Positions 13,293 to 31,920 of a DNA stretch of 64,000 bases are shown one piece after another. The translations under genes and the position numbers were made by a program. How positions within the stretch are numbered: the stretch's first letter is position 1; each line of letters starts with the position of its first letter. Location: positions 29,142-93,141 of the IMG/VR virus record IMGVR_UViG_3300044691_000429; one strand, 5' to 3'. The DNA is from a virus. A model generated the notes under the pieces. That model saw nothing but the letters and a program-made list of their open reading frames with translations, was not told where the DNA came from and made no database searches.

Positions 13293-13577
13293 GTGGACGC
13301 CATCTACCGCGAGCGCGCCCACCTCGTAGCGCACCTAGCTGCCATCTACCCGTCACACATCGGGCACACCGACCCCGACGAGCCGGAGTGGGCTGTCGTC
13401 ACTATCAGCCTGCCTACCGGCCAGGCCACGTGGCACGTCGCGCCCGACGACATGGACCTCTTCGGGCACGTCCGCACGGACATCAGCGAACCGTGGGACG
13501 GCCACACCACCGAGCAGAAGTACGCCCGCCTGGACCATGCGACCCGCGTGAAGGCGGCCGGGGAGTGGGTGGCCTGA
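13293..13577 (+). CDS. WDGH-motif small protein
   Basis: YRER..L, LPTGQATWH and WDGHTT..KY.RL motifs. Confidence 0.7.
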   Translation: MDAIYRERAHLVAHLAAIYPSHIGHTDPDEPEWAVVTISLPTGQATWHVAPDDMDLFGHVRTDISEPWDGHTTEQKYARLDHATRVKAAGEWVA

Positions 13578-18094: not shown

Positions 18095-18289
18095 TCAGCT
18101 CAGTCCACGCCGCGCCCGGCACCACTGCCGCCCGCAGTCGATCAACTCGGGGTCGGAGTGGTCGGGGACGCCGTCGCCGTCGGCGGCCGCCGTGATGCCG
18201 AGGTCGCCTTCCAGTGTGCGGATCACCAGCGGCCACGCCCGGTCGTGGACATCGCAGCGGCGGGCGATGCGGCGCAGGATGCCGGTCAT
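18095..18289 (-). CDS. Hypothetical protein
   Basis: ATG 18289 with GGAGG RBS, overlaps the upstream stop. Confidence 0.5.
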   Translation of the reverse strand: MTGILRRIARRCDVHDRAWPLVIRTLEGDLGITAAADGDGVPDHSDPELIDCGRQWCRARRGLS

Positions 18290-18717
18290 GTCCCCTCCTC
18301 CGTCCAGCCCCAGCCCTCCGCGAGGGCGATGAGGGTGTCGCAGTAGCCGCGGCCGTCGACGCGATCGTCCCGCTTGTGGCATGTCCGGCAGCCGAACCGC
18401 GTGATCCTGATGTCGCGGACGTCCCTGGTGATCGGGTGCGCGGCGAGGATCTTCCGGTCGGCCGCGATGCGGCGGAGGACGGCGGCCGGGTCGTGGCGGG
18501 CGATGTGGACGGCATCGGGGAGAGCGTGGTCGCTGCTGGCGCTCACCACCAGGGGGCCGAGCGGCAGACCGCTTCCGCTTCGCTGCCCACTGTCGTGCAC
18601 GACCGCAACATTGTGGTGAGCGTTCCACACAGTCCATGGTCCCGGCCGCGCCGCTTCAGCCTCCTGCTCTACCGCGTCCAGGGTGGCGTGCAGGTAGGCC
18701 AGCGGGGTGGTGGTCAC
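18286..18717 (-). CDS. DUF6221-like protein
   Basis: HIARHDPAAVLRRIAADRKIL...C.TL..LA motif. Confidence 0.7.
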   Translation of the reverse strand: MTTTPLAYLHATLDAVEQEAEAARPGPWTVWNAHHNVAVVHDSGQRSGSGLPLGPLVVSASSDHALPDAVHIARHDPAAVLRRIAADRKILAAHPITRDVRDIRITRFGCRTCHKRDDRVDGRGYCDTLIALAEGWGWTEEGT

Positions 18718-19085
18718 GGGGTCACCGACCCGCTGGCCGGTTCTTCGGCGGTCTCGCGCTGGGCGTCGCGGAGTTCCTTCACCAGGTCGTCCAGCTTGTC
18801 GGACGCGTAGTAGACGTTGCTGGCCTCGAACGGCAAACCGGCAGACCGCAACTCCTGGTACAGGTCGTACAGCTCGCTTGCGTGGGCTTCGGCCTGCTGG
18901 ATGGCGCGCGGCAGGGGCTGCTCCCACGCCGGGGTCTGGCCTGCTGGCACGACAGCGTCGGGGCCTTCGGGCTGGCCGTAGACGAGTCGGTTCGTGACCC
19001 GCTTGATCCGCTGAGCGCCGCAGCCTTCCGCTCGCATCGCGTCCTCGACCTCCGCCATGACGCGGCGCAGTTCCCCATCGTCCAT
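18714..19085 (-). CDS. Hypothetical helical protein
   Basis: ORF with typical codon usage, GTGA overlap. Confidence 0.55.
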   Translation of the reverse strand: MDDGELRRVMAEVEDAMRAEGCGAQRIKRVTNRLVYGQPEGPDAVVPAGQTPAWEQPLPRAIQQAEAHASELYDLYQELRSAGLPFEASNVYYASDKLDDLVKELRDAQRETAEEPASGSVTP

Positions 19086-19125
19086 GCGCCCAGTGTCCCC
19101 CCGCCGCCCGACAACGCCGCGGGGG

Positions 19126-19461
19126 TTACTGCGGCAGCGGCACGCCCGCGTGTTCCTCGGCCATGTGGTCGAGGCCGCATTCCCGGGCCTCCCGCTCGTT
19201 GCTGCCGTAGGTCATCTCGGCGGCCAGCCACCGGTCGCAGTGGGGGCACCAGTAGTCGTAGGCATCAGGGCCGTGCTCAGGCTGGGGCCGCACGCGGATG
19301 GTGTCCAACCGCGCCTGGTGGCGCTGGTCGATGTCGCGCATCAACTCACCGGCCAGGTTGCGGCGCTTGGGGCCGAACGGGACGTCCTGGAACGCGAGAG
19401 ACGGCGACGCCAGGAAGCCGGTTCGGTGCGCGATCCGCTTGAGTGTCCAGCGAAGGGTCAT
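19126..19461 (-). CDS. Hypothetical protein with C2H2-like motif
   Basis: WCPHC...H...H. Confidence 0.5.
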   Translation of the reverse strand: MTLRWTLKRIAHRTGFLASPSLAFQDVPFGPKRRNLAGELMRDIDQRHQARLDTIRVRPQPEHGPDAYDYWCPHCDRWLAAEMTYGSNEREARECGLDHMAEEHAGVPLPQ

Positions 19462-19561
19462 CCCCCCATCATCCCCTCCACCGGACGCGCGCGGGCCCCC
19501 GCCGCGGTGACGGCAGGGGCCCGGGGGGATCGGTTCTCCTCTTCGGGAATGCGGACCCCGC

Positions 19562-19768
19562 CTAGTCGATGAAGCGGAACGCGGCGAAGGCGGTGTGACG
19601 CGGGTGGGCGGTGGCGGCGCAGATCCGGTCGGCTTCGTCGACGTCGCCCCGATTGACGGCAGCGGCGGCACGCTTGGCGGCGTCCCAGTCGACGGGGTTG
19701 TCCAGGTCGATCGGCTCGACCTCGCGGGCGGTGGGCTTGCGGCAGAGCAGCGAGCGGAGCAGGGACAC
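19562..19768 (-). CDS. Hypothetical protein
   Basis: GGAG RBS, 68 aa. Confidence 0.55.
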   Translation of the reverse strand: MSLLRSLLCRKPTAREVEPIDLDNPVDWDAAKRAAAAVNRGDVDEADRICAATAHPRHTAFAAFRFID

Positions 19769-19777
19769 GGCGGTCTC

Positions 19778-20041
19778 CTATCGGTCGGGAGTCTGGTACG
19801 CACGGACGGCGTAGACCGGCGGCATCCGGGGCGGGTCGGCGGGTTCGGCGGGTTCGAGGTGTTGGTCGCCGAAGACGTGCAGTCCGCTCACCCGGTCGTG
19901 CCAGGTGAGCCCGGCGACGATGTTCATGCCGTTCTCGTGCTCCCACACGGTGCCGGTGCGGCCGATCAATTGGCGGTGCTTGTGGGGCGGGACGAGGTGG
20001 TCGACGGACAGGACGGTCACGCGGGAACCGGAGGGGTACAT
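19778..20041 (-). CDS. Hypothetical SH3-like protein
   Basis: GSRVTV...IGRTGTV...F.D..LEP pattern; GGAGG RBS. Confidence 0.55.
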   Translation of the reverse strand: MYPSGSRVTVLSVDHLVPPHKHRQLIGRTGTVWEHENGMNIVAGLTWHDRVSGLHVFGDQHLEPAEPADPPRMPPVYAVRAYQTPDR

Positions 20042-20082
20042 GGGTGCCTCCTATGCAGGTCGGGTGGGATGAGTGCCCCTGG

Positions 20083-20348
20083 TCACCAGATGGCGGCGAG
20101 GCGGGCGTGGGCGCCGCATCCGGTGCAGGTCGTGGCGGCGCGGTGGTTGCCCCAGTTGCAGCGGGCGCAGTCCCAGCCCCGCAAGTCCGCGACAAGCCGG
20201 CCCCGGCGTGTTCGGCGGCTTCCTTCTCCAGGTCGGCCTTGCGGGGGGTGCCGCCGGTGTTGCAGCCGGAGCAAGACCAGCGTGAACCCAACGGCCCCGA
20301 GCGGACCGTGACCTTCTCGCCCATCTGGGTGGGCATGCTGAGGTTCAC
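20083..20348 (-). pseudogene. Possibly frameshifted double zinc-finger gene
   Basis: WSCSGC...EHA in one frame, WDCARC..N....C..C in another; frame change near 20183-20195. Confidence 0.4.
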
Positions 20349-20352
20349 CGGG

Positions 20353-20541
20353 TCACGCCTCCTGCTTCTGGCCGTAGTAGCCGGAGCGGGGGTTGGTGGT
20401 GTCGGACAGGTGGACGCGGTACCCGTCGGTGGCCAGGACGAGCGGGTCGCTGGCGGTGCCGGGGTGGCCGCAGGCCGCGCAGGTGTTGCGCTGGCCTTTG
20501 TGGTCGCGGGCCTGCTGGGTGGTGTTGATGTAGCCAGCCAC
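20353..20541 (-). CDS. Small CxxC protein
   Basis: CAACGH, DGYRVH. Confidence 0.6.
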   Translation of the reverse strand: MAGYINTTQQARDHKGQRNTCAACGHPGTASDPLVLATDGYRVHLSDTTNPRSGYYGQKQEA

Positions 20542-20544
20542 GGG

Positions 20545-20721
20545 TCAGCCCTCCTTGATGACGTAGATGGCGCCGTTCGGGTCGATGGCGAGGACGGTGC
20601 CGCAGCCGCCGCACTCGTAGACCCGGTAGCCGTCTCGGCTGCCCTTGTGGGCCATGACCTCTTTGCAGCAGACAGGCGGGTCGTCGGTCATGCGGGAGTT
20701 GGTGACGGTTCGGGATGCCAT
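20545..20721 (-). CDS. Small zinc-ribbon protein (58 aa, not in ORF track)
   Basis: MASRTV...PVCCKEVM...YECGGCG; RBS upstream. Confidence 0.55.
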   Translation of the reverse strand: MASRTVTNSRMTDDPPVCCKEVMAHKGSRDGYRVYECGGCGTVLAIDPNGAIYVIKEG

Positions 20722-20723
20722 GG

Positions 20724-20918
20724 TCAGTTCTCCTGCTTCTCGCCGAGCCGGACTTCCATGGAGGCGCGGCCGAGTTCGGCGATCTCGCTGCCGTCGGTGG
20801 TGCGAGTGGCGAAGCGTGCGTTGACCTCGGCGACGATGCGGTCGGTGGTCCTGATGTCGCCGCGCCGCTTGGCAGCGACGTACTCGCGGACGGAGTCGTG
20901 CTGGTAGTTGGTGGACAT
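20724..20918 (-). CDS. Hypothetical protein
   Basis: AAAGGA RBS, 64 aa, first gene downstream of the clt-like array. Confidence 0.65.
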   Translation of the reverse strand: MSTNYQHDSVREYVAAKRRGDIRTTDRIVAEVNARFATRTTDGSEIAELGRASMEVRLGEKQEN

Positions 20919-20942
20919 GGGATTCCTTTCGATCTTGGTTGA

Positions 20943-21104
20943 GCCGGTCCGGGGCCGGTCGGGACCCGGTCGGTGGGGGTGTTTGCCCTAGTCTGTGCCC
21001 GGACGGAGGCCGGACGGGACTCGCAGCCAGCAGTTCTGGCGGCCAGCCCCCGGCCGGGCCGAACCCGGGTGCTACCCGGCCTGAGACCGGGTCCCGGCCG
21101 GGTC
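20943..21104 (-). repeat. clt-like locus: 8-bp repeats in 11-bp phase (candidate TraB recognition sequences)
   Basis: CCGG cores at 20944, 20955, 20966, 20999, 21010, 21054, 21065, 21076, 21087, 21098, all the same modulo 11; minus-strand 8-mers include GACCCGGC and GACCCGGT. Confidence 0.7.
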
Positions 21105-23135
21105 CATCAGCCCTGCGGCGGCCTGTTCGACCGCCGACCGCTCCCAGCCGCGGAGCCGGCCGTTGGCCTCGGTGTCCCGGCTGGCGGTCACGCCCGGCGC
21201 GTGCTTGCGGAGAATCCGGCCAAGGCGCTCCGAATCCATCTCGCCATACCCGGAGTTGTGGAGCGCGGGCAGCAGCGTCTCGGACGTCGGCAGGAAGTCG
21301 GCGGCGCCCAACTCGAACTCCCGCAACAGGATGGCGACCAGCCGTGCATCGTCCACTCCGCCCTGTGAGGCCAGGGCGTCAAGCCGGTCGGCGATAAGGT
21401 CGCCACGCCCGGACGTCGAGAGGTTCGCCCCGGAGCCGATCAGGGTGTCGGCGTCCATGCGGGGCCGGCCCGCCTTGAGACGCTCGGGCAGGGCGGCGGT
21501 GATCTGCGGGCGGGTGTACTGGTTGAACTGGTGGCGGATGGCCCGGGTCAGCGCGCCGCCCATGATCATGGCCTGGCCCGCGTCGTTCGCAACGGGGCCA
21601 ACGGCGGGCTTCATGCGGTCCGGCCGCCAGCCGAGAGCGCCAGCACCCACACCGAACGCAATCTTGACGTCCTCGAAGCGGCAGGCCATCAGTATCCGGT
21701 AGGCGACGATCGCCGCGATGGCGTCACCGAGAGCGTCGGCTGTAGCCTCCTGACCGGCCATGATGAGGTAGATGCCGTACTGGCGGCCCGTCCGCAGGAT
21801 CTTGATCGCGGCGTCCTTGCCCTTGGCACTGAGCTGGATGAACTCGTCGATGTTGATGTACAGGTTCGGGTGCTCCGGGGTGGCGTGCCACCGGTCGCCC
21901 ATCCCCAGGGTGTGCATGAGCTTGCCGCGGGCGGACACGTAGGTCAGGGCCTCGTCCAGCGCTTCCTCGCACTCCTCGGGCCCCCTCGCCCGGCGGGCCA
22001 TGAGGTCGCCGAACTCGGACAGCCCGCCCTTGATCGGGTCCAGGTCCCACACGACGGCGTCCCGGCACGCGGTCAGGGCCTCGTTGATGGTGCGCAGCGC
22101 TCCGAGGCTCTTGCCCGCGCCCATCGCTCCGATGATCAGAGCGCAGAACCCATCGAGGCTGAGTTCGAGGGTGCTCCCGTCCATGGTCCGGCCCATGTGG
22201 ACCACATCGTGCACGGACAGGGAGTTCGGGGGCCGCACCGCGGGCTTCGGCATGTCCGCGAACGGGTTGGACGCGACGAGCCGCACGGTGACCCTGGACT
22301 TGTCGCGACTGTCCGGCTCGGGCATGAACCCGCCGTCGGGCAGGGCGAGATGCCCCTCGATCTGGTCGGACGCGGCCATGACCTTGCCCGGGGTGGCGCC
22401 CTTGAGTTCCAGGGCGATCTCCCAGCCCCAGCCGCGGTAGCCGAGCACGTTGATCTGCCGGGCGCCGATGCCCTCGGCCTTGAGGGCGCGCTGGATGCAG
22501 GTCCGGACCTGCTCGCCGTCCTTGCACCAGGCCAGCGGGAACGGCTCGCCGTCGTCCACCTCGGGCTCCGGGCCGGGTCCGATCGCGGTCGCGACCGGGG
22601 CGGCCTCCAGCGCCCGCCTGATGTTGATGCGCCGCCCGTACCCGGTGACGACAGCCCCGGCGATCGCGGTCTCGGCCGCGGGCGCCGCGAGGAACGCCTC
22701 CCCGGCGGGCATGCCCACACCCAGCACGAGGCCGAGGGATGCCGCAACGGTGAGGACGACCCCGCCCCCGGCGGTGCCCGCGGCGGTGATCCACCGGCGG
22801 TGGCGCTCCTCGCGGATCTTGTCCCAGTCCGCATTGCTGCGGGGCTCCACGGACTCGACGCGATCGGTCGCCCGCACGTACCGCCAGCCCGCGCGGGTCG
22901 TGCCGTGCAGACCCCGCCCGAGCCACCCTCCGCCGGTGCCTGCCGCGCGGGCGGTGTGGCCGAGGCCGCGCCCGGTCGCCCTAGCAGCGACCAGCGCGGC
23001 GGACTGGGTGGTGCGCGGCGCCGGCCGGGTGGTGGGCACGTCCGGCGCCGCGGGCTTCGCGGGGACGTAATCCGGCTTGAGGAAGTCCGGCACGTCGATG
23101 TCGGCGGCCGTGCGGGAGGAGCTGTCGATGGCCAT
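21072..23135 (-). CDS. traB: TraB-like FtsK/SpoIIIE conjugative DNA translocase
   Basis: Two N-terminal hydrophobic segments, Walker A GAMGAGKS, LDPIKGG, Walker B YINIDEF, GRQYGI...AGQ, GWRPDRM, C-terminal wHTH-like region. Confidence 0.85.
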   Translation of the reverse strand: MAIDSSSRTAADIDVPDFLKPDYVPAKPAAPDVPTTRPAPRTTQSAALVAARATGRGLGHTARAAGTGGGWLGRGLHGTTRAGWRYVRATDRVESVEPRSNADWDKIREERHRRWITAAGTAGGGVVLTVAASLGLVLGVGMPAGEAFLAAPAAETAIAGAVVTGYGRRINIRRALEAAPVATAIGPGPEPEVDDGEPFPLAWCKDGEQVRTCIQRALKAEGIGARQINVLGYRGWGWEIALELKGATPGKVMAASDQIEGHLALPDGGFMPEPDSRDKSRVTVRLVASNPFADMPKPAVRPPNSLSVHDVVHMGRTMDGSTLELSLDGFCALIIGAMGAGKSLGALRTINEALTACRDAVVWDLDPIKGGLSEFGDLMARRARGPEECEEALDEALTYVSARGKLMHTLGMGDRWHATPEHPNLYINIDEFIQLSAKGKDAAIKILRTGRQYGIYLIMAGQEATADALGDAIAAIVAYRILMACRFEDVKIAFGVGAGALGWRPDRMKPAVGPVANDAGQAMIMGGALTRAIRHQFNQYTRPQITAALPERLKAGRPRMDADTLIGSGANLSTSGRGDLIADRLDALASQGGVDDARLVAILLREFELGAADFLPTSETLLPALHNSGYGEMDSERLGRILRKHAPGVTASRDTEANGRLRGWERSAVEQAAAGLMDPAGTRSQAG

Positions 23136-23138
23136 GGG

Positions 23139-24482
23139 TCAGGCGTCCTTCGGAGTCGCGGTCTTGGCGGTTATGGCGGCCTGCTTGCGGGCGGCTTCAA
23201 CGAACGGGGCGGTGTCCCCCGGGCGGCGTACTCCACGCACCGGAGGACCGGTAACCGAGCCCCTACGGCGAGTAGGGGGGACTTGCGGATTCACCTGCGC
23301 GTTGCCGATCTTCCACACGGTCTTGTCGGGGGCGTCCGCGCGGGCGTCGAGCATGCGTCGGGCAGCCGCGTTCCGGAGCTGCTGGGCCTCCGCGGAGTCG
23401 CCCGGGTCGGTGCCCTCGACGTCCTTGTGGGCCCGCCTCCAAACGGTCTCGGTGACGGTCGTTTCGCCGAGCGCGGCGGCCAGTTTGACGGCGTGCTCCC
23501 ACACCTTCGGGTACAGCGTTTCGCGGTCCTTCGTGAGCTTCTCGAAGGCCGCCTTCGCCGCCTTCTCGGCGGCCTCCTTCTCGGCCTTCACAGCTGCCTC
23601 GCGGGCGGCCTTCTCGGCAGCAGCCCGCTTCTCCGTGCGCTCCTGATCCTTCCGCTCGCGACCCGTCAGGGCGCCGTCGCGCTTCCGGATCCGGCCGTGC
23701 TCGTGCAGGTCCCACACGCCGGGGCCGGCGACCGAGGCGAAGGCGGTAGCGAGAGCCGTCGCCATCCCGAAGTGCCCCAAACCGTGCGTCAGGTTGATGC
23801 CCGCAGCAACAAACGCCAGCGCCCACGCGATCAGGCGGTAGTGCCAGTGCGGCCGGTGGTCATCGACCGCTGCAGCAGCACCGCGGAGGACAACCCACGC
23901 GCCGCCTTCGAGGAAGAGCGGTGCGGCAACGAGCCAGGGTGCGGCAGGGTTCCAGAACGCGGATGCCTGCACCGGGAGCGCAACAACGGCGCACACGACG
24001 GCGAAGCCGAGGGCGGCACGCTTCCAGGAGGACGCGGACTTGCCGTGCTTGGCCTGCTGCTCGATGTCGGCCTGCCGCTGCGCTGCGGCTGCGAGGCGGC
24101 CGTCCTCGCGTGCCCGGTCGGCCTCATCTCGCTTGCGATTGGATTCGGCGATGCGCGCCTCACTGGCGGCGTCTTCCTCGCGGGCACGCCGGGCGGTCTT
24201 GTCGTTGGCGAGCTGCAGCCGACGGGCTTCCTCTGCCGCCCTGACCTTCTCGGCTTCGGCCTTGCCTTCGGCTTCGATCAGCAGGGCTGCGGCTTCGGCC
24301 TCGGCGCGGGTGCGGATGGCGGCGGCTTCGGCGGCGGCCACCAGGTCCACGGCCGGCCCAGCGGCGGGCGCCGGCTCGGGTGCGGTCTCGGGTTCGGCGA
24401 TGCCGCCGATGCGGATGGGCGTGAACGGCTCCCATGTGGGCACGTGGGGCCGCGTGGTGCCGTTCAGGGTCTGGCCGGACAC
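23139..24482 (-). CDS. SpdB-like spread/transfer membrane protein (coiled coil, 4 TM, coiled coil)
   Basis: Ala/Glu/Arg coiled coil, four hydrophobic segments, AGINLTHG, directly upstream of traB. Confidence 0.7.
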   Translation of the reverse strand: MSGQTLNGTTRPHVPTWEPFTPIRIGGIAEPETAPEPAPAAGPAVDLVAAAEAAAIRTRAEAEAAALLIEAEGKAEAEKVRAAEEARRLQLANDKTARRAREEDAASEARIAESNRKRDEADRAREDGRLAAAAQRQADIEQQAKHGKSASSWKRAALGFAVVCAVVALPVQASAFWNPAAPWLVAAPLFLEGGAWVVLRGAAAAVDDHRPHWHYRLIAWALAFVAAGINLTHGLGHFGMATALATAFASVAGPGVWDLHEHGRIRKRDGALTGRERKDQERTEKRAAAEKAAREAAVKAEKEAAEKAAKAAFEKLTKDRETLYPKVWEHAVKLAAALGETTVTETVWRRAHKDVEGTDPGDSAEAQQLRNAAARRMLDARADAPDKTVWKIGNAQVNPQVPPTRRRGSVTGPPVRGVRRPGDTAPFVEAARKQAAITAKTATPKDA

Positions 24483-24501
24483 GGTCGGGTCTCCTTCGGG
24501 G

Positions 24502-24777
24502 CTATCGGGTGGGCTGGTTGTAGGCGTCGCGGAACTCTTCGGCGAACGCGGCGGCGAGGACGCCGATCCCGGTCTGCGACAGCGCCGGGTGCCCGGTGCG
24601 GGCGGCGAGCTGCTGCTCGGCGTGGACAGCGGCGGCGGTGGCCACGGTGACGATCACCCGCAGGGTGCGGAGGACCAGCACCAGCACCCCCAGCAGCAGT
24701 TGCGCGACGACCGCGAGGACCGCCAGCACCAGCCGCCGCCATGGGGTCGGGGCGCGGGCCACCAGGACGCGGGGCAT
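24502..24777 (-). CDS. Small membrane protein (Spd-like)
   Basis: Long hydrophobic stretch; in the tra operon. Confidence 0.6.
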   Translation of the reverse strand: MPRVLVARAPTPWRRLVLAVLAVVAQLLLGVLVLVLRTLRVIVTVATAAAVHAEQQLAARTGHPALSQTGIGVLAAAFAEEFRDAYNQPTR

Positions 24778-24944
24778 CAGGCGTACCTCCGGGGGGCTTT
24801 GCCGTCCCGCGCGGACACGGCCCAGGCGCTGGCCCATCGGCCGAGGTCGGGCAGGAGGACGGTCGGCAGCTCCTGCTCGAACTGCTTGCGCACGGGCGCC
24901 GGGCAGGCGGCAATGAGCCCCAGAAGGTCAGACCAGCGCGTCAT
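24777..24944 (-). CDS. Hypothetical protein
   Basis: Overlapping start and stop with neighbours. Confidence 0.5.
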   Translation of the reverse strand: MTRWSDLLGLIAACPAPVRKQFEQELPTVLLPDLGRWASAWAVSARDGKAPRRYA

Positions 24945-25528
24945 GACGCCCCCTTCGCTGCGGTACGGACCAGGCCGAGCGCCTGCTCCCCGGTGGCGCC
25001 CGGCATCTCGTTCCACCGCGGGTACGGCATCGTGATCCCCCGGCTGGCGAGGGCGCCCTGGATCTGCCGCCCCGCCTCGACCGCGGTGTGCTCGGTGCCG
25101 TAGCCGAGGGCGTGCACGGCCCGCTGCGCGCCGAGGATGCAGCGCCCACCGGTCGCAGTGCGGATCCGGCGGCCCGACTTGGCCCACCCCCACCGCTCCA
25201 GGACCAGCGCGGTCAGCTCCAGGTGCTCCGTGGTGGTGATCCGCGCCCGCTGCAGGCCCTCACCCCGACGGGGGCGGAGGACGAGCAGCCGGTCCGGCAG
25301 CACCCGCCACAACCCGCCGGGCAGCTGCGGGCCGGCCGGAGCCGACGGGGCGGGCTCGCTGCCGACCGCCAGCCGCACCAGGTCGGCCGTCGGCAGCGTC
25401 ACGAGCCGGTGCGCGGTCCGCGTCGGATCCGTCAGCCACGCCACAGCCTCGGCCGCCAGCTCGTCGGCGACGCCGTCGAACAGGTCCAGGTCGGGCAGGC
25501 TCGGGATTGCGGTCGTCATGTCAGACAC
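24941..25528 (-). CDS. DUF6197-like protein
   Basis: LERWGW...G.RCILGA...WNE.PG.T...L...R.AA. Confidence 0.65.
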   Translation of the reverse strand: MSDMTTAIPSLPDLDLFDGVADELAAEAVAWLTDPTRTAHRLVTLPTADLVRLAVGSEPAPSAPAGPQLPGGLWRVLPDRLLVLRPRRGEGLQRARITTTEHLELTALVLERWGWAKSGRRIRTATGGRCILGAQRAVHALGYGTEHTAVEAGRQIQGALASRGITMPYPRWNEMPGATGEQALGLVRTAAKGAS

Positions 25529-25889
25529 CCGCCGGGGTGGCGTGGCTGATTACCTCGGCCGGGTCGGGGCCGAAGATGCCGGGCCGGTTGCGCAGTTCCT
25601 GGAACGTCATCAGGCCGCCGGGCTTCCGCTCGTGGATCGGGCCGTAGCCGAGCCACGCACCGGCGGCGGTCATGTGGTCGCAGCGGGCCTCCTGGCCGAT
25701 CCACCGGCCCGGCCGGCTGAACGTCCACTCCATGAGGGCCCGCTTCGGCGCCCCGGGGTACTTCGCGTTGAGGTCCACCACGCTGTAGTAGGTGTGGCCG
25801 GGCTTGACGGTGGCGGCGAAGGTGGCGGCCTCCTTCTGGGCATTGCGACGCGCCACGGTCGCTGGCGCGATCAGGCTGAGCGGGTTCAC
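25521..25889 (-). CDS. Hypothetical protein
   Basis: GAAGGAG RBS, 122 aa. Confidence 0.6.
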   Translation of the reverse strand: MNPLSLIAPATVARRNAQKEAATFAATVKPGHTYYSVVDLNAKYPGAPKRALMEWTFSRPGRWIGQEARCDHMTAAGAWLGYGPIHERKPGGLMTFQELRNRPGIFGPDPAEVISHATPAGV

Positions 25890-25933
25890 GGTGCTCCTTC
25901 GGTTGTGTGGCGGGCGGGGTGTCTGGCGGTTCT

Positions 25934-25966
25934 CCTCACCACCCAGCGCGGGGCTGGGTGGTGAGG
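25934..25966. terminator. 14-bp perfect hairpin within the tra operon
   Basis: CCTCACCACCCAGC / GCTGGGTGGTGAGG, 5-nt loop, intergenic. Confidence 0.55.
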
Positions 25967-25973
25967 GCAGGCG

Positions 25974-26174
25974 TCAGGCGGCGGGTCCTCGGCGCCACCG
26001 GGGAAGCGGCTTGGCGGCCTGGTTGGCGGCGGCGTTCAGCTCCAGGTATTCGGGCGTCTCGTCGCGGATACCGGCGCGCCTCTCGCGGGCGCTGTTCCGG
26101 TGCAGGGCGGCGTCGGCGGCCTTGGACGCCTTGACGTCCTCGGGGCGGCCGAGGATCTTGTCGCGGATGCTCAT
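25974..26174 (-). CDS. Hypothetical protein
   Basis: GAAAGGA RBS; ETPEYLELN motif. Confidence 0.6.
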   Translation of the reverse strand: MSIRDKILGRPEDVKASKAADAALHRNSARERRAGIRDETPEYLELNAAANQAAKPLPRWRRGPAA

Positions 26175-26244
26175 TGGGTTCCTTTCGGGTCGGGGTGCCG
26201 GGCCGGCCTGCGGAGGGGTGCTGGCCGGCCCGGCGGTCGGGGGG

Positions 26245-28682
26245 TCAGATCTCTTCGGCGGGGGCGCGTCCGGCTTCACGCTCGGGGCTGTCGTCGGTCG
26301 GCGTGGCCACGGTGGTCTCCTGGTCGTAGTCGTTGCGGGGGTAGAACGGCCGGTCGTGCTGCGGGCAGAGCAGGTGCGGGTCGTTGCAGGCGGCGACCGG
26401 ATGGCCGGTCACGTCGGCCGGTCGGCCTGGGCCCGCTCCATCGCCTCGCCCATGTCGGTGGCGCGCTCGTCGGGCTCGGGCACGGGCGGCGGGGGGACGG
26501 ACGCGGTGACCCGCCCGTTCGCGGCCAGGGCCTCGGCGGCTGCGGCGTGCTCGGAGGGGACGGTCACGGTCACCACCAGCCCTTCTTCTTCGGCTTGGGC
26601 GGGGTGGCGATGGCTTCGTGGCGGGCGGCTTCGGCCAGGTGGCGGGCGGCCAGGTCCTGGTGCCGTCGGCCCTTCTTCGAGGCGTCGGCTGCCTTCTCCG
26701 GGTCGGAGTAGTCCTTGCCCTCGCGGCCGTAGACGTCGACAACCATCTGCTGCCGCTCGGCCTCGTCGTGGTGCTTGCCTGCGGCTTCACGGGCACGCTG
26801 CGCGGCGGCACCGGCCTGGCGGCGGACGTACTCGGCTTCGGGGGACTCCATGTCGCGGAACTTGCGGCCCACGGTCACCACCCCCTCGTCTGTACGCCGC
26901 GCCGGTGCGCGGTCGGGTCGGTCAGGTCGGACGGGAGCGGCGGCAGGGTGACCGGCTTGGCGACGATCACGCGGGCGAGCGCCTCGTCCGCCTGGCTCCG
27001 CTGCTCGCGGGGCTCCGGGCGGGCGGTCACTTCGCACCCCCGACCGGGCAGACGTCGTCCGGGTTGGCGTGGGTGTGGTTGGCGCCGCTGCGGGCGGGCC
27101 GGGCGATCCACTGCTGCGGCCCGGCGACCGTGTCCGCCCAAGCGCGGGCCTCCGGCTCGCCGTTCGGCGGGGCACCGACCGGGAAGCCGACCAGCGTGTC
27201 GATCAGCCGGCCCCGGTAGCGGAGCTGCCACCCGTACACGACCCCGTGGAGCAGGCCCCACATCAGGGTCAGGTCCGCGTTCGGGCAGAACCACGCCGGG
27301 GTGAACGGGGCCGCGGGGGAGGGCGCCCGCTGATCGGCCCCGTCCGCGGCGTCCAGCTCGGCGCACTCCCGGTACAGGTCCAGGAACGAGGTGCCGTCGG
27401 GGGTCTGCATCGCGCCGAGAACCTGTTCGATCTCCGCGTCGGTGGCGGGCCGGCCCTCGGGGCTGTCGCCGTCGTGGATGGTCGAGATCACGACTGCCTC
27501 CCGTTCCGGTCGTCGCGGGCGACGATGACGTCCAGGCAGCCGTCGGGAAGGCCCACCACCCAGTCGAAGTCGGCGAGGGTGATGCCGTGACCGGCTGCGG
27601 CGGCGAGCATGTCCGTCAGCAGGGCGGTCGCTGCGGCGCGCTGCCCGTCGGTGGCCGGAGGGCCGTTGCGGTGCACGGCCGCGATACGGGCGGCGGGGTC
27701 CTGGGTCACGACTTCCTCCCGTGGGTGTGCGGCGCGGCGGTGATGGTCTCGGGGGTGTCCGTGTTGCGGCCGGCGTAATCGGCGGCCGCGGCCTCGACCG
27801 TCGCCGGCTCGGCGACGACCGTGGACGGCTGTGGCGGGGCGGGCGGCCGGTGGGTGGACTCGGTCACGACTGCCCCCGCAGCTGCTCGGCCTGCTGGCGG
27901 GCGGCTTCGGCGAGACGCGAGGCCTCGGCGGCATCCGCGATGTGCTGCTGCGCGATGGCGTCCGCGGCCTGCTGCTCGGCGATGGCGCTCATGCCGCACC
28001 GCCCGACTCGGTCTCAGCCGTCTCGTCCACGCGGGGCCCGGTCAGGCGCCCCGTGAAATCCAGGGCCGTGTACGCGGTGGCGCTGGTCGCGATCACGGCC
28101 AGAGTCACCGGAACACCGGGCTGGGCCGCCAGCACCGCAACCTGAGCCGTGGCGGCTGCCGTGGCCACCCAGCCCACCGTGCGGGCCAACGACGGGCGGT
28201 TCATGCCGCACCGCCCGGCGTCCGGCAGTCGCTGGCGTGGGCCTTGGCGTCGTCGCGGCAGTACGGCAGCACGCTGTAGCGCTGCTCGGCGTAGTGCCCG
28301 GCGGTGCACGTCCAGTCGTAGGGGATGCGGCTGCCCAGGATCGCCGTGACGGTGACCGTGGCACCGGACGGAGTCGGGTACGTCATGGGCCGACCGTCGG
28401 AGACAACGGGGACCGGCTCCGGCTGCGCCTTCATGCCGCCACCCACGCCTCGTACTCGGCGAGGCCCTGGCTGGTGGCGTCCCAGGCGGCCTCGATCTCC
28501 AGCCGCTGGACAGCGCTGGTCGCCCGCTCCAGCGCGGCCCGGCCCTTCGGCGACAGGTGCGAGGCCGACTCGTGGGCGGCCTGGTCGGCGGGGGACATCG
28601 GGACCGGCCGGTAGGACGCGGCGATACGGTCCGCGACGTGGGCGGGGAAGGTGGGCGGGGTGATCTTGCGGATACTCTGCAC
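26245..28682 (-). CDS. Chain of small translationally coupled ORFs: 26245-26412, 26409-26573, 26570-26878, 26875-27030, 27027-27491, 27488-27709, 27706-27867, 27864-27992, 27989-28204 (2 TM), 28201-28434 (Cys/His, mobile-element type), 28431-28682
   Basis: Consecutive 4-bp ATGA/GTGA overlaps; typical of Streptomyces mobile-element accessory operons. Confidence 0.6.
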
Positions 28683-28720
28683 TTCGGCTCCCGTTGGGCT
28701 TAGCGGCTTCGGGTGGTCAT

Positions 28721-28758
28721 GGCCCCGGTCGGCGTTCGCAGCGCCGGTCGGGGTTTTT
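28721..28758 (+). terminator. Hairpin plus T-tract oriented on the + strand
   Basis: 16-bp stem with several G-U pairs valid only in the + RNA, followed by TTTTT. Confidence 0.55.
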
Positions 28759-28762
28759 GCTG

Positions 28763-29008
28763 TTAGGCGGCGTCGTCGGCGGAAATCTGCGACGCCCGGA
28801 GGAACTCGGCCACGGCCGACTCGGGGATGCGCAGTCCGCGCTTCCGCAGTCGCCCTTCGCCGATCCGGTGGGCGCGGATGCGCCCGGAGTCGGCGAGGCG
28901 GTACACGGTGGACACGTGGACGTCGAGGCGGTCCGCGACCTGCTGCGCCCGCAGCAACGGCTCAGCAGTGGCGGGGGCCGTAGTCGGGGCAGTCGGGTCG
29001 TGGCACAC
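28763..29008 (-). CDS. Excisionase-like HTH protein (first gene of the tra operon)
   Basis: LLRAQQVADRLDVHVSTVYRL..SGRI.A.RIG...RIPESAV; AGGAG RBS. Confidence 0.85.
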   Translation of the reverse strand: MCHDPTAPTTAPATAEPLLRAQQVADRLDVHVSTVYRLADSGRIRAHRIGEGRLRKRGLRIPESAVAEFLRASQISADDAA

Positions 29009-29045
29009 GGAATCTCCTAGGGCATGGGCAGCGGGGCGCACATCT

Positions 29046-29102
29046 TCTTCGAAGAGGCACCTCTTCAGTGAAGCTGAGTTCTTCGAAGAAGGCAAGCTCT
29101 TC
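29046..29102. promoter_or_regulatory. Operator cluster upstream of the tra operon
   Basis: Palindromes TCTTCGAAGA (29046-29055) and TTCTTCGAAGAA (29079-29090), plus half-sites. Confidence 0.7.
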
Positions 29103-29134
29103 TAGCTCGCACAGCAGCAGGCCGCGTCGGACAC

Positions 29135-29170
29135 GCAAAGAAGCCCCCCGCTGCCGAAGCAGCGAGGGGC
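29135..29170 (-). terminator. Intrinsic terminator of the GntR gene
   Basis: Minus strand GCCCCTCGCTGC-TTCG-GCAGCGGGGGGC followed by TTCTTT; C(UUCG)G tetraloop. Confidence 0.8.
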
Positions 29171-29185
29171 GGAGGACTTCGCAGG

Positions 29186-29935
29186 TCAGGAGGAGAAGAC
29201 GTACTCCAAGATGTAGTTGGACCCGTCGAGCGTCATCTCATTGACTTCTACGAGGCGGTCATTCTGGTCCGCCGCGATGCGGATGATCTGGAAGACGGGA
29301 GTGCCAGGGCCCAAACTGAGATCGGCCGCCTCCTGGGGGGTGGGCATCCTAGTCCTCACCTCCTCCTTGAACCGCGTGGGCGCATGGCCACTCTCGGCGA
29401 GTCGGGCGTACATACCGCCGGGGCCAGTGTCCTGCTGAGTGATGGCCGTGCCAGCCGCCAAGCTCATTGGCACATACGAGACGGCGGTCTGAATGAGCCG
29501 CTCCTCCACATAGAAGCGCCGGCTCCGGCGGCACATGCGCTCGTCAGACTCCAGGAGTTGAGCCACGTGATCGGGCGCATCGACCTCGTTGACGTCCACC
29601 TCGACGCGACGCGGGCGGTCCTCCAGGTCAACGTCCCAGATCGACCGCCCGGCATGCCACACCTCCGAAGAGAGGCGCTGCACTGCGGGCCGTCTGATTG
29701 GGCGGAAGGCGCGGACGGTGACGCCGACCCCCTGCCTGCTCTCAACGAGGCCTTCTGCGCGAAGGGCGTCCAGGGCCTGCCGCACGGTGGACCGAGCGGC
29801 CGCATGCCGCTCCATGAGGCCGTTCTCGCCTTCGATCTTCGACCCCGGCGCCAGCTCGCCGCCGAGGATCTTCGCGCGCAGCTCGTCCGCGATCTCCTGA
29901 TGGCGGCGCGGCCCGCGCTCGGGCTTGCTGGGCAA
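29186..29935 (-). CDS. GntR (HutC/UTRA subfamily) repressor, KorSA/Kor-like
   Basis: IADELR.KI..G...PG....E..L......RSTVRQAL..L..EGLV...QG.G wHTH plus UTRA-like C-terminus; TTG start after GGAGGA. Confidence 0.92.
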   Translation of the reverse strand: MPSKPERGPRRHQEIADELRAKILGGELAPGSKIEGENGLMERHAAARSTVRQALDALRAEGLVESRQGVGVTVRAFRPIRRPAVQRLSSEVWHAGRSIWDVDLEDRPRRVEVDVNEVDAPDHVAQLLESDERMCRRSRRFYVEERLIQTAVSYVPMSLAAGTAITQQDTGPGGMYARLAESGHAPTRFKEEVRTRMPTPQEAADLSLGPGTPVFQIIRIAADQNDRLVEVNEMTLDGSNYILEYVFSS

Positions 29936-30013
29936 GGCATTCCTCCTAGATCGGCTTCTTCAGAGATGTTAGCTACCGACCGGTTGACGTGCGAACTCTG
30001 CGAATCCCTTGCG

Positions 30014-30027
30014 GTTCTTCGAAGAAG
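30014..30027. promoter_or_regulatory. Operator copy between GntR and the GIY-YIG gene
   Basis: GTTCTTCGAAGAAG, identical to 29078-29091. Confidence 0.7.
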
Positions 30028-31443: not shown

Positions 31444-31752
31444 GTGGGCGTACAAGACGGACCGGACCCGCAGGCGACACCGCCAGACGATGACGACGAC
31501 TTCCCGTGGGATGCCCCGATCCACGTCGTCCGCTCAACACCGCAGAACGACTTGCCTGCCGAGTGGGCGCAGGATCGGACGCTGAGCCTGGGCGCCCGGG
31601 GCCTGCTCGCCGAGATCATGGCGCACGGCGGCGAGTGGGACATCGACGCGGAAGGGCTGGCCGAACTGAGGCCGACCGAAGACGTTGACGCCATCCGCGG
31701 CTACATCGCCGAGTTGGAGCGGGCCGGCTACCTGGACCCGTCAGGCGACTAG
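31444..31752 (+). CDS. Short winged-helix protein (initiator-type N-domain only)
   Basis: LSLGARGLL...........L......DAIR..IAELERAGYL. Confidence 0.7.
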   Translation: MGVQDGPDPQATPPDDDDDFPWDAPIHVVRSTPQNDLPAEWAQDRTLSLGARGLLAEIMAHGGEWDIDAEGLAELRPTEDVDAIRGYIAELERAGYLDPSGD

Positions 31753-31920
31753 CCGGACATAGCAACGGCCGGAGGGATATGGAGTCCCGCCCGGCCGTCG
31801 GCGAACCAGCAGGCAGCCACCCGCTCGGTTCGGACACAACGCATCGCCCTGCAAGAGAGAAGGTTGCTCGTTGAAGGTACAAGGCTGCGCCCGATGCTGC
31901 CAGCAGGCGGGGGGTCTCCG

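What the first reader, a model, noticed from the sequence alone, without database searches (positions are those of the whole stretch)
18095..30027. Tailed prophage carrying an apparently complete Streptomyces-type conjugation system (TraB + clt + Spd + Kor)
Seen: between the tail/lysis genes and the early genes is an ~11-kb operon containing an FtsK-family ATPase with N-terminal hydrophobic segments (21072-23135), a coiled-coil/4-TM protein (23139-24482), small membrane proteins and a leading Xis-like HTH. A phased repeat array lies at the traB 3' end, and a GntR-UTRA repressor with operators lies upstream. No integrase, relaxase, rolling-circle Rep or T4SS gene is visible in 18-36 kb. Known: Streptomyces plasmids and AICEs (pSVH1, pIJ101, pSAM2) transfer dsDNA using one TraB translocase, clt repeats, Spd proteins and a GntR-type Kor/TraR repressor. 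Inference: the module belongs to the phage, so the excised circle could move between hyphae by TraB transfer as well as in virions. That would be a dual-mode phage/conjugative element, possibly bypassing receptor-level resistance.
Basis: partly seen in the sequence, partly recalled or inferred. Interest (0 to 1): 0.9.

Follow-up and report, generated by a model that had tools for sequence, protein, structure and literature searches.

The report
Streptomyces phage with TraB transfer cassette
A complete 93-kb temperate Streptomyces tailed phage carries, as part of its own genome, the repressor, membrane protein, DNA pump (TraB) and docking repeats that Streptomyces plasmids use for mating, so its DNA may also move between or along hyphae without virus particles; this is untested here and has a laboratory precedent in the plasmid-phage pZL12.

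Summary
Window 18.7-30.0 kb (minus strand) holds one cassette:
- a GntR/UTRA repressor flanked by three exact TCTTCGAAGA operators;
- an excisionase-type HTH gene and small genes;
- a coiled-coil/4-TM SpdB2-family (DUF2637-like) protein;
- a 687-aa TraB-like translocase (2 TM, FtsK-fold motor, winged-helix-like C-terminus);
- ten CCGG-core repeats in exact 11-bp phase across the traB stop. Relatives read GACCCGGC here, 7 of 8 bases of the pSVH1 TraB recognition sequence.

The record is not an integrated prophage. It is a circular 93-kb IMG/VR contig with terminase, portal, capsid, tape measure, lysin, replication genes and two tyrosine recombinases. No att-like repeats, integrase or Rep bound the cassette.

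The same cassette (TraB 44-70% identical) lies inside four other capsid-bearing phage records and inside two chromosomal Streptomyces prophages, at different positions. It therefore belongs to these phages and is not a nested AICE.

Function, either capsid-independent hyphal transfer or spreading, is inferred only. Precedents exist: pZL12 (unrelated in sequence), SpdB2 homologues in phiC31 and VWB, and annotated FtsK-like genes in lytic Streptomyces phages. This scan has already reported the same kind of cassette in at least 59 other genomes.

Verdict: a new variant of a known kind.

The parts
30014..30027 (.). Operator O1 (GTTCTTCGAAGAAG; core palindrome TCTTCGAAGA at 30016-30025). It sits in the divergent GntR / GIY-YIG promoter region.
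   Evidence: One of only three exact copies of the core in 64 kb. Sequence read.
29186..29935 (-). GntR/HutC-type repressor (GntR wHTH plus UTRA), Kor/TraR-like
   Evidence: Pfam GntR 5.6e-16 and UTRA 4.1e-22. 30% identical to pIJ101 KorA, E 1e-10. Conserved at the head of the cassette in G001, G003, G004, G005 and G166.
29143..29170 (-). Intrinsic-terminator-like hairpin after the GntR gene
   Evidence: 12-bp stem, 4-nt loop, T-rich tail.
29046..29091 (.). Operators O2 and O3 (TCTTCGAAGA at 29046-29055 and 29080-29089), upstream of the excisionase-type gene and the tra operon
   Evidence: The same two-upstream, two-downstream layout occurs in relative L012, and related sites occur in G005 and G004.
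28763..29008 (-). HTH_17 / excisionase-family DNA-binding protein, first gene of the operon. The GTG start at 29008 is inferred.
   Evidence: Pfam HTH_17 1.9e-12. TIGR01764 1.7e-11. PHROG 66. 74% identical from residue 1 to the G005 homologue.
25521..28682 (-). Variable block of small genes with high third-position GC: 83, 81, 154, 101 and 122 aa. No family assignment.
   Evidence: GC3-based gene calls. No Pfam, NCBIfam or PHROG hits. Poorly conserved among relatives.
24941..25528 (-). DUF6197 protein (195 aa). Its start overlaps the end of the preceding gene.
   Evidence: Pfam DUF6197 2.3e-15. A 39%-identical homologue lies beside the cassette in the G166 prophage.
24502..24837 (-). 111-aa single-pass membrane protein (Spd-like by position only)
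   Evidence: One strong hydrophobic segment, aa 37-55. No family hit.
23139..24482 (-). SpdB2-family (DUF2637-like) membrane protein: N-terminal charged helical region, four TM segments, C-terminal domain
   Evidence: Hydropathy. The profile of 9 homologues matches the pFP1 DUF2637 protein, which lies directly upstream of the pFP1 TraB homologue, at 98.9% probability and E 1.3e-17. Atlas lead 'putative SpdB2' at 0.86. The match to pIJ101 SpdB is only weak.
21072..23135 (-). TraB-like dsDNA translocase: N-terminal region with 2 TM segments, FtsK-fold motor, winged-helix-like C-terminal domain
20943..21104 (.). clt-like array of ten CCGG-core repeats (GACCCGG / GACCGG type, both orientations) in exact 11-bp phase. 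It spans the traB stop codon and the 154-bp intergenic region.
   Evidence: Homologous arrays of GACCCGGCnnn lie at the same place in 10 relatives. The pSVH1 TraB recognition sequence is GACCCGGA.
18714..20918 (-). Distal small genes of the same strand block (64, 58 with a Zn-ribbon-like CxxC pair, 62, 87, 68 and 123 aa). Membership in the cassette is uncertain.
   Evidence: GC3 gene calls and translations. Only the 64-aa protein has homologues near the cassette in relatives.

Best explanation
This is a TraB-type double-stranded-DNA translocation cassette that is a native, separately regulated part of a temperate Streptomyces siphophage genome.

Proposed working, all of it inferred from the plasmid paradigm:
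1. The GntR/UTRA repressor binds the TCTTCGAAGA palindromes on both sides of its own gene. It keeps its own promoter and the downstream operon off.
2. On de-repression the operon is expressed: excisionase-type HTH, small proteins, SpdB2-like pore/scaffold protein, and TraB.
3. Membrane-anchored TraB hexamers dock through their C-terminal winged-helix domains on the 11-bp-phased GACCCGG-type repeats at the end of traB. All repeats then lie on one face of the helix.
4. TraB pumps the circular (excised or replicating) phage genome as dsDNA across hyphal walls. The destination is a contacting mycelium (conjugation), neighbouring compartments across septa with SpdB2 (spreading), or both.
5. The phage's own replication genes and tyrosine integrases establish it in the new compartment.

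Shown here: the parts, their order, their conservation, and their linkage to a complete phage genome.

Inferred: DNA binding, repression, and any transfer.
For: Parts:
- TraB-like ATPase with 2 TM segments, invariant Walker A and B motifs, an FtsK-motor fold and a winged-helix-like C-terminus.
- Its best curated family is NCBIfam plasmid_TraB.
- By blastp it matches the TraB-like proteins of plasmids pFP1 and pSLUN2 at E 1e-65. It has no significant match to chromosomal Streptomyces FtsK.
- In the tree its family is sister to a plasmid-TraB plus phage-FtsK-like clade.
- SpdB2-family homology to the DUF2637 protein that precedes TraB on pFP1: 98.9%, E 1.3e-17.
- The clt-like array is statistically exceptional. 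It is conserved in position in 10 relatives and reads GACCCGGC there, against the pSVH1 recognition sequence GACCCGGA.
- Kor-like circuit: three exact operators only around the GntR gene. The same layout, with co-varying sequence, occurs in relatives.
- The gene order repressor, spd genes, spdB2, traB, clt parallels the pSVH1 TraR-controlled transcript described in PMC4447253.

Linkage to the phage:
- The contig is circular and complete, with terminase, portal, capsid, tape measure and lysin.
- There are no att-like repeats around the cassette.
- The cassette lies in four other capsid-bearing phage records.
- It also lies between early and late genes of two chromosomal prophages.
Against: - No experiment bears on function.
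- The ATPase scores far below the NCBIfam TraB equivalog cut-off (42 against 800 bits) and below the Pfam FtsK_SpoIIIE gathering score.
- The winged-helix assignment rests on topology and modest Z scores of 5-6.7. Foldseek gave nothing significant.
- Only SpdB2 among the Spd proteins is identified.
- The closest phage homologues (40% identical) sit alone in strictly lytic 130-kb phages, without Spd or Kor genes. This shows the motor can serve a phage purpose other than plasmid-style mating.
- Tandem recognition-type repeats are not enriched in the two host chromosomes checked.
Confidence: 0.6

Rival explanations
1. The motor serves a phage-internal purpose, not mating between mycelia. Candidates are moving phage DNA across septa within the infected mycelium during lytic growth or while lysogeny is being established, or moving or segregating DNA at sporulation septa. 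Horizontal, capsid-free transfer to new hosts would not occur.
For: Homologues with the same TM-motor-C-terminal architecture are carried singly by strictly lytic Streptomyces phages. Thoma et al. proposed that phage SpdB2 homologues spread phage DNA within the mycelium. Published phage papers mention FtsK-like genes only in connection with replication or development.
Against: In plasmids the same TraB performs both entry into the recipient and spreading, so the two roles are not exclusive. A dedicated kil-kor-like repressor and a clt-type array fit a plasmid-style, regulated transfer function better than a constitutive lytic function.
Confidence: 0.25
2. The cassette is an independent AICE or plasmid remnant that inserted into the phage. 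It is either autonomous or decaying cargo with no role for the phage.
For: The cassette is transcribed against the late genes and has its own repressor. Its position and orientation differ between phage genomes, so it moves as a module. A truncated copy exists in the S. albidocamelliae chromosome.
Against: There is no integrase, Rep or att-like direct repeat at its borders. All genes are intact with high third-position GC. Catalytic residues are invariant across 32 homologues at 43-75% identity. The GntR, HTH, SpdB2, TraB and clt set is kept together in at least six phage or prophage genomes with different capsids.
Confidence: 0.07
3. The cassette is a defence or exclusion system. A membrane FtsK/HerA-type ATPase and its partners would block incoming plasmids or phages.
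For: Weak PADLOC hits to MADS components: mad8 at 23 bits for the ATPase and mad1 at 29 bits for the HTH. The location, between the lysis and early genes, is typical of morons.
Against: The hits are generic P-loop and HTH similarities. No defence family reaches a convincing score. A cis-acting phased repeat array at the 3' end of the ATPase gene and SpdB2 homology have no counterpart in known defence systems.
Confidence: 0.05

Closest known systems
Transfer region of Streptomyces conjugative plasmids: pSVH1 traR-spdB3-spd79-spdB2-orf108-traB-clt, pIJ101 korA/tra/spd, and the pFP1 / pSLUN2 DUF2637-TraB pair
   Same: - A GntR-type repressor with repeated operators sits ahead of one long operon.
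- Small spd-type genes are followed by a coiled-coil/4-TM SpdB2-type protein just before traB.
- TraB has TM segments, an FtsK-like motor and a C-terminal DNA-recognition domain.
- An array of 8-bp-type repeats lies at the 3' end of traB, with a motif one base from the pSVH1 GACCCGGA.

   Different: - The cassette sits in a 93-kb tailed-phage genome, not a plasmid or AICE.
- There is no plasmid Rep or Par, and no adjacent integrase.
- TraB is only 30-34% identical to pFP1/pSLUN2 and 25% to pIJ101 Tra. It is far below the NCBIfam TraB equivalog cut-off.
- The repeats are strictly phased at 11 bp and occur in both orientations.
- An excisionase-type HTH gene leads the operon.
Streptomyces plasmid-phage pZL12 / phage ZL12 (GQ919031; Zhong et al. 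2010, J Bacteriol 192:3747, as cited in PMC4487206 and PMC3583192)
   Same: A circular element of about 90 kb combines a full set of siphovirus structural genes with an FtsK-like tra gene, adjacent membrane-protein genes and a GntR regulator. [quoted passage not shown]
   Different: - It is not a relative. The TraB-like proteins are 23% identical (E about 1e-4) and only 4 other proteins match.
- pZL12 has ParA/ParB and lives as a plasmid. This element has no ParA/ParB but has two tyrosine recombinases, and its relatives are integrated prophages.
'FtsK-like DNA translocase' of lytic Streptomyces phages (LukeCage, Jay2Jay and others; PHROG 12531)
   Same: These are the closest sequence relatives among named phages: 40% identity over the motor and E 4e-88 to PHROG 12531. 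LukeCage gp110 has the same TM, motor and C-terminal architecture.
   Different: They are single genes among tRNA genes in 130-kb lytic genomes. They have no SpdB2, no GntR repressor and no visible repeat array.
AICEs (pSAM2, SLP1, pMEA300 type)
   Same: Integrating elements that transfer as dsDNA by a single FtsK-like Tra protein under a GntR-type Kor repressor.
   Different: AICEs are defined by adjacent Int, Rep and Tra modules within att borders and have no virion genes. Here Int lies more than 30 kb away, no AICE-type Rep was seen, and the cassette is embedded in a phage.

Membership tests
Streptomyces plasmid TraB (dsDNA conjugative translocase) | FtsK/SpoIIIE-like motor domain with intact Walker A and Walker B motifs | tested here: met
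   AF2 model matched to the FtsK motor 2IUS at E 6.6e-14, TM 0.67-0.69. GxxGxGK(T) and DE are invariant in 32 homologues.
Streptomyces plasmid TraB (dsDNA conjugative translocase) | N-terminal membrane anchor | tested here: met
   Two hydrophobic segments at aa 126-142 and 147-163 by hydropathy. No dedicated TM predictor was available.
Streptomyces plasmid TraB (dsDNA conjugative translocase) | C-terminal winged-helix domain that reads the recognition repeats | tested here: inconclusive
   The domain model (pLDDT 85.5) has H-H-b-H-H-b-b topology. The best VIA matches are almost all winged-helix domains, but at Z 5-6.7. Foldseek gave nothing significant. DNA binding was not tested.
Streptomyces plasmid TraB (dsDNA conjugative translocase) | clt: clustered 8-bp-type direct repeats at or near the 3' end of traB | tested here: met
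   Ten in-phase CCGG-core repeats, 0 of 5000 shuffles. GACCCGGC arrays lie at the same place in relatives. The motif matches 7 of 8 bases of the pSVH1 sequence.
Streptomyces plasmid TraB (dsDNA conjugative translocase) | Sequence membership in the curated model NF041214 plasmid_TraB | tested here: not met
   41.9 bits against a cut-off of 800. It is a distant homologue, not an equivalog. It is closer to the pFP1/pSLUN2 plasmid proteins (E 1e-65).
Streptomyces plasmid TraB (dsDNA conjugative translocase) | Mediates transfer and pock formation | not testable with these tools
   Needs mating assays.
SpdB2 / DUF2637 spread protein | N-terminal coiled-coil region, four TM helices and a C-terminal domain, encoded just upstream of traB | tested here: met
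   The gene ends 3 nt before the traB start. The architecture is as described for pSVH1 SpdB2.
SpdB2 / DUF2637 spread protein | Sequence homology to plasmid SpdB2/DUF2637 proteins | tested here: met
   hhalign against the pFP1 DUF2637 protein gave 98.9%, E 1.3e-17. Caveats: Pfam DUF2637 was hit by only 2 of 9 family members at E 0.0056 and not by this protein. The match to pIJ101 SpdB was 12% probability.
Kor/TraR (GntR-type kil-override repressor) | GntR wHTH plus UTRA protein next to the tra operon, with repeated operators in both its own and the tra promoter regions | tested here: met
Kor/TraR (GntR-type kil-override repressor) | Represses an otherwise lethal tra gene | not testable with these tools
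   Needs genetics.
AICE | Int, Rep and Tra modules adjacent, bounded by att direct repeats; no virion genes | tested here: not met
   There is no Int or Rep in 18-36 kb and no flanking direct repeats. Full virion gene sets lie on the same circle.
pZL12-type plasmid-phage | Plasmid maintenance (ParA/ParB, RepA) together with virion genes and a tra locus | tested here: not met
   No ParB_N or CbiA/ParA match in the whole record. Virion genes plus tra are present. There is almost no sequence relationship to pZL12.
Chromosomal FtsK/SpoIIIE | Passes Pfam FtsK_SpoIIIE; similar to the host FtsK | tested here: not met
   19.6 bits, below the gathering score of 24. PF01580 misses the prophage copies in G006 and G166 but finds FtsK there at 219 bits. 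blastp to those FtsK proteins is not significant.

The most novel reading that the evidence does not exclude
A whole clade of integrating temperate Streptomyces phages routinely transmits its excised genome horizontally as naked dsDNA through TraB-clt. This is capsid-independent, contact-dependent infection followed by Spd-assisted spread through the recipient mycelium. These viruses would then have two infection routes, and the second would be insensitive to receptor loss.
Probability: 0.35. Interest if true: 0.8.

Novelty: new variant of a known kind. Interest (0 to 1): 0.58.

Why it matters
If the cassette works as in plasmids, these phages blur the line between virus and conjugative element in a multicellular bacterium.
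- Lysogeny could be established across a mycelium, or passed to receptor-resistant neighbours, without lysis.
- Chromosome mobilisation by a prophage-borne TraB would become possible.

The idea is directly testable with standard Streptomyces genetics. The only laboratory precedent, pZL12, is a plasmid-type element unrelated in sequence. A conserved cassette in integrating prophages would therefore widen the phenomenon considerably. I found no paper describing such a cassette in integrating prophages in the searched library.

Tried and rejected
- Nucleotide search of the cassette and the tail region against 50,697 phage records: no match.
- Portal protein against plasmids: only distant hits, and no phage-plasmid relative.
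- Kinship with pZL12: rejected. 5 weak protein matches, TraB 23% identical.
- Nested AICE: rejected. No att-like repeats. The only tRNA call is far away, at 12.3 kb. No Int or Rep lies beside the cassette.
- Plasmid lifestyle: no ParA or ParB.
- Chromosomal FtsK identity: rejected.
- Defence system: only weak generic PADLOC hits.
- SpdB2-like protein against phages by tblastn: no match. Against pIJ101 SpdB: inconclusive.
- clc-like tandem recognition repeats in two host chromosomes: not enriched, 1 and 3 hits against 0-2 for the control.
- A repeat array after LukeCage gp110: none seen.
The contexts of the closest homologues, P0005 and P0006, could therefore not be read.
- The pZL12 paper and the Vogelmann 2011 TraB paper are not held. 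Their content is cited only through papers that are held, or from memory.
- The pSVH1 TraB sequence was not retrieved, so recognition helices were not compared.

Full report
WHAT THE RECORD IS

The window is bases 29142-93141 of a single 93,141-bp record. The first 127 nt of that record recur at its end, so it is a circle of 93,014 bp with 70% G+C and no host flank. It is an IMG/VR virus record classed as having direct terminal repeats, and CheckV rates it 100% complete.

Genes were called by third-position G+C. Family scans then gave the following content.
- Outside the window: a large terminase containing an intein, a portal, and an HK97-type capsid.
- In the window: a tape-measure protein (4865-8665), an Rv2525c-like glycoside hydrolase (13388-14509), and a collagen-repeat protein.
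- A minus-strand replication block: DnaB-type helicase, N6/N4 methylase, Bro-N, AAA_24, a PDDEXK exonuclease-like protein and a weak clamp-like protein.
- Two tyrosine recombinases, at window 62496-63965 and at genome 12527-13687.
- No ParA or ParB.

The capsid is 47% identical to that of the temperate Streptomyces phage Dagobah. Nothing in the phage collection matches at the nucleotide level. The record is therefore a complete temperate Streptomyces siphophage genome seen as a circle. It is not shown to be an integrated prophage.

THE CASSETTE (WINDOW 18.7-30.0 KB, MINUS STRAND)

The parts follow in order of transcription.

(i) The repressor. A GntR plus UTRA protein is encoded at 29186-29935. 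It is 30% identical to pIJ101 KorA. A strong hairpin terminator follows the gene.

(ii) The operators. The palindrome TCTTCGAAGA occurs exactly three times in the 64 kb. One copy lies upstream of the GntR gene, at 30016. Two lie between its terminator and the next gene, at 29046 and 29080. About 0.7 near-matches are expected by chance in the whole window.

(iii) An HTH_17 / excisionase-family gene at 28763-29008. A second, weaker HTH_17 gene lies near the integrase at window 62.5 kb, so the phage may have its own Xis elsewhere.

(iv) Small genes without family assignment, a DUF6197 protein and a single-pass membrane protein.

(v) A 447-aa protein at 23139-24482.
- Residues 41-150 are 76% A/E/R/K/Q/D and helical. 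Four hydrophobic segments follow at 156-251, then a C-terminal domain. This is the architecture reported for SpdB2 of pSVH1.
- A profile of nine homologues matches the DUF2637 protein encoded directly upstream of the TraB homologue of plasmid pFP1, at 98.9% probability and E 1.3e-17.
- The matches to pIJ101 SpdB and to Pfam DUF2637 are weak.

(vi) The 687-aa ATPase at 21072-23135.
- It starts 3 nt after the previous stop codon.
- It has two TM segments, and its Walker A and B motifs are invariant in 32 homologues.
- The predicted motor matches the FtsK motor domain (2IUS, E 6.6e-14), then TcpA and EccC.
- The last 117 residues fold with confidence (pLDDT 85.5) into an H-H-b-H-H-b-b domain. Its best structural neighbours are nearly all winged-helix domains, but only at Z 5-6.7.

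(vii) The repeat array at 20943-21104, across the traB stop codon and the following 154-bp spacer.
- 10 of 13 CCGG share one phase modulo 11.
- No other place in the window exceeds 4 in phase. No other period from 7 to 15 exceeds 3 at this site. None of 5000 dinucleotide shuffles reaches 10.
- The units read GACCCGG or GACCGG, in both orientations.

IS THE ATPASE TRAB OR FTSK?

- Pfam FtsK_SpoIIIE scores below its gathering threshold (19.6 against 24 bits).
- The best curated family is NCBIfam plasmid_TraB, but at 42 bits against an equivalog cut-off of 800.
- PHROG 12531, a phage FtsK/SpoIIIE-like family, matches at E 4e-88.
- Pairwise blastp E-values are: LukeCage gp110, 1e-86; pFP1 and pSLUN2 plasmid proteins, 1e-65; pIJ101 Tra, 1e-5; pZL12.71c, 3e-5; chromosomal FtsK of two Streptomyces genomes, not significant.
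- In a maximum-likelihood tree the family forms a clade (support 94/95). It is sister to a clade of plasmid TraB-like proteins plus LukeCage (91/89). FtsK lies on long, remote branches.
- PF01580 finds FtsK and EccC in those genomes but misses the prophage copies.

The protein is a divergent member of the plasmid/phage TraB-like group. It is not a chromosomal FtsK, and it is not an equivalog of the curated plasmid TraB.

DOES THE CASSETTE BELONG TO THE PHAGE?

There are no att-like direct repeats, integrase, Rep or tRNA at its borders. Comparative evidence points the same way.
- Ten IMG/VR contigs carry TraB homologues at 59-62% identity.
- More than 120 proteins at 42-73% identity exist, many of them on Streptomyces chromosomes.
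- Of five long viral records, four have an HK97 capsid gene above the Pfam cut-off. One of these (G004, 62.6 kb) is again circular.
- These genomes are mosaics. With this one they share mainly the cassette. Some also share integrase, replication or tail genes. None shares the capsid or portal.
- The head of the cassette (GntR, then the HTH_17 gene, often with a divergent GIY-YIG gene) is conserved in G001, G003, G004, G005 and G166.
- The operator layout recurs. L012 has two CTCCTTCGAAGGAG sites upstream and two downstream of its GntR gene. G005 has CTTCTCCGTAGAAG-type sites in both places. G004 has TGGTACACGACC-type sites that resemble the pSVH1 TraR repeat TTTGGTACACAACT.
- In the Streptomyces sp. 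NPDC051582 contig the cassette lies between DnaB/exonuclease genes and terminase/portal/tape-measure genes of a prophage of about 70 kb.
- In a 10-Mb Streptomyces chromosome (G166) it lies between the terminase end of a complete late operon and the replication genes, with integrases at both ends of a prophage of about 75 kb.

Position and orientation differ between genomes. The cassette therefore behaves as a phage module that recombines among phages, not as a nested autonomous element. At E 1e-80 or better it was found in 3 of 301 Streptomyces species genomes. This count is a floor.

THE CLT-LIKE ARRAY IN RELATIVES

In ten relatives the same site, from 42 nt before to 13 nt after the traB stop, carries five or six 11-bp units reading GACCCGGCnnn. 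Three of them carry four more inverted units (CGCCGGGTnnn) downstream. Eleven is not a multiple of three and the array runs past the stop codon, so this is a DNA-level feature.

The pSVH1 TraB recognition sequence is GACCCGGA (PMC5133688). The clt regions of Streptomyces plasmids are described as direct 8-bp repeats recognised by the cognate TraB (PMC4447253). Plasmid pFP1 has a different repeat (CTCTAC-type) just after its TraB homologue.

MECHANISM

The parts and their order parallel the pSVH1 transfer region, where TraR controls one transcript: spdB3, spd79, spdB2, orf108, traB. The most likely working is therefore as follows.
1. The GntR protein represses its own promoter and the operon.
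2. De-repression expresses the HTH protein, the SpdB2-like protein and TraB.
3. TraB docks on the phased repeats and pumps the circular phage genome as dsDNA across hyphal walls or septa.
4. Phage replication genes and integrases establish it in the new compartment.

Every step after the anatomy is inference.

The main rival is a purely intramycelial or lytic-phase role. Homologues of the motor stand alone in strictly lytic 130-kb phages, which favours it. The two roles are not exclusive, because plasmid TraB performs both. Nested AICE, decaying cargo and defence system are each disfavoured.

COMPARISON WITH WHAT IS KNOWN

- pZL12 / phage ZL12 is a 90-kb Streptomyces plasmid-phage. It has virion genes, ParAB, an FtsK-like gene, neighbouring membrane-protein genes and a GntR regulator. 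[quoted passage not shown] A relative, pSLE1, is also known. It is a functional precedent but not a relative of this phage.
- SpdB2 homologues on phiC31 and VWB were suggested to spread phage DNA.
- FtsK-like genes in Streptomyces phages are noted in passing in phage papers.
- I found no paper describing a TraB-SpdB2-Kor-clt cassette in integrating prophages.
- This scan's own notes report the same kind of cassette in at least 59 other genomes, with follow-up conclusions like mine. Notes on this window gave me the 11-bp phase and the operator leads, both of which I re-tested.

VERDICT

This is a new variant of a known kind, namely an integrating-phage version of the pZL12-type virion-plus-TraB combination, built from a pSVH1/pFP1-like cassette.

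LIMITS

- Two key papers are not held.
- The pSVH1 TraB sequence was not compared.
- TM and coiled-coil calls are from simple hydropathy and composition.

Noticed in passing
L002:6496-9003 (genome 20496-23003): The large terminase (Terminase_3) is interrupted by an intein, with Hint_2, PT-HINT and Intein_splicing hits.
   Followed up: no
L001:9290-11477 (genome 9290-11477): Adjacent T4-type RNA ligase and polynucleotide kinase-phosphatase genes (PNKP HAD domain at E 1e-48), i.e. a tRNA-repair pair. A HAD_SAK_2-like protein lies at window 56715-57467.
   Followed up: no
window 62496-63965 and genome 12527-13687; G166:C1 737.8-738.8 kb and 809.9-811.1 kb: This phage has two tyrosine recombinases. 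In the related G166 prophage, homologues of the two G004 integrases sit at opposite ends of the prophage. The role of the second recombinase is unexplained.
   Followed up: partly
L040:3539-5350 (Streptomyces phage LukeCage gp110): The 'FtsK-like DNA translocase' of lytic 133-kb phages has the full TraB-like architecture of TM segments, motor and C-terminal domain. It stands alone among tRNA genes, with no Spd or GntR gene and no repeat array.
   Followed up: partly
G004:C1 10180-10340 and 11040-11250: The GntR operators of this relative (CTGGTATAGGACCAG, TGGTACACGACC, TGGTACTAGACAG, TGGTCCTATACAGG) resemble the pSVH1 TraR repeat TTTGGTACACAACT. They differ from the TTCGAA-core sites of this window, which suggests co-variation of operator and repressor within one cassette family.
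   Followed up: partly
L034:10001-11020 (S. albidocamelliae chromosome): Only the C-terminal half (aa 331-684) of a 70-77% identical TraB homologue is present, with few phage genes around it. It is probably a decayed prophage remnant.
   Followed up: partly
L063:4485-4720 (plasmid pFP1, downstream of its TraB homologue): A dense set of CTCTAC(A/G) repeats and inverted GTAGAG copies starts right after the stop codon. It is a candidate clt with a different motif.
   Followed up: no
window 28721-28755: A 16-bp-stem hairpin lies between the HTH_17 gene and the next gene of the operon. The scan scored it as a plus-strand terminator, and its role on the minus-strand transcript is unknown.
   Followed up: no
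window 31444-32715: An HTH_36 protein (E 2.7e-4, below the cut-off) lies next to a 283-aa protein with no family. These genes are not conserved beside the cassette in relatives.
   Followed up: partly
window 12288-12372 (-): ARAGORN calls an 85-nt tRNA-Asn on the strand opposite a 345-aa tail-region ORF. It may be spurious.
   Followed up: no
L001:4229-5218: A 329-aa protein with a C-terminal HTH_31 / Aca2_YdiL domain and an unassigned N-terminal 200 aa.
   Followed up: no
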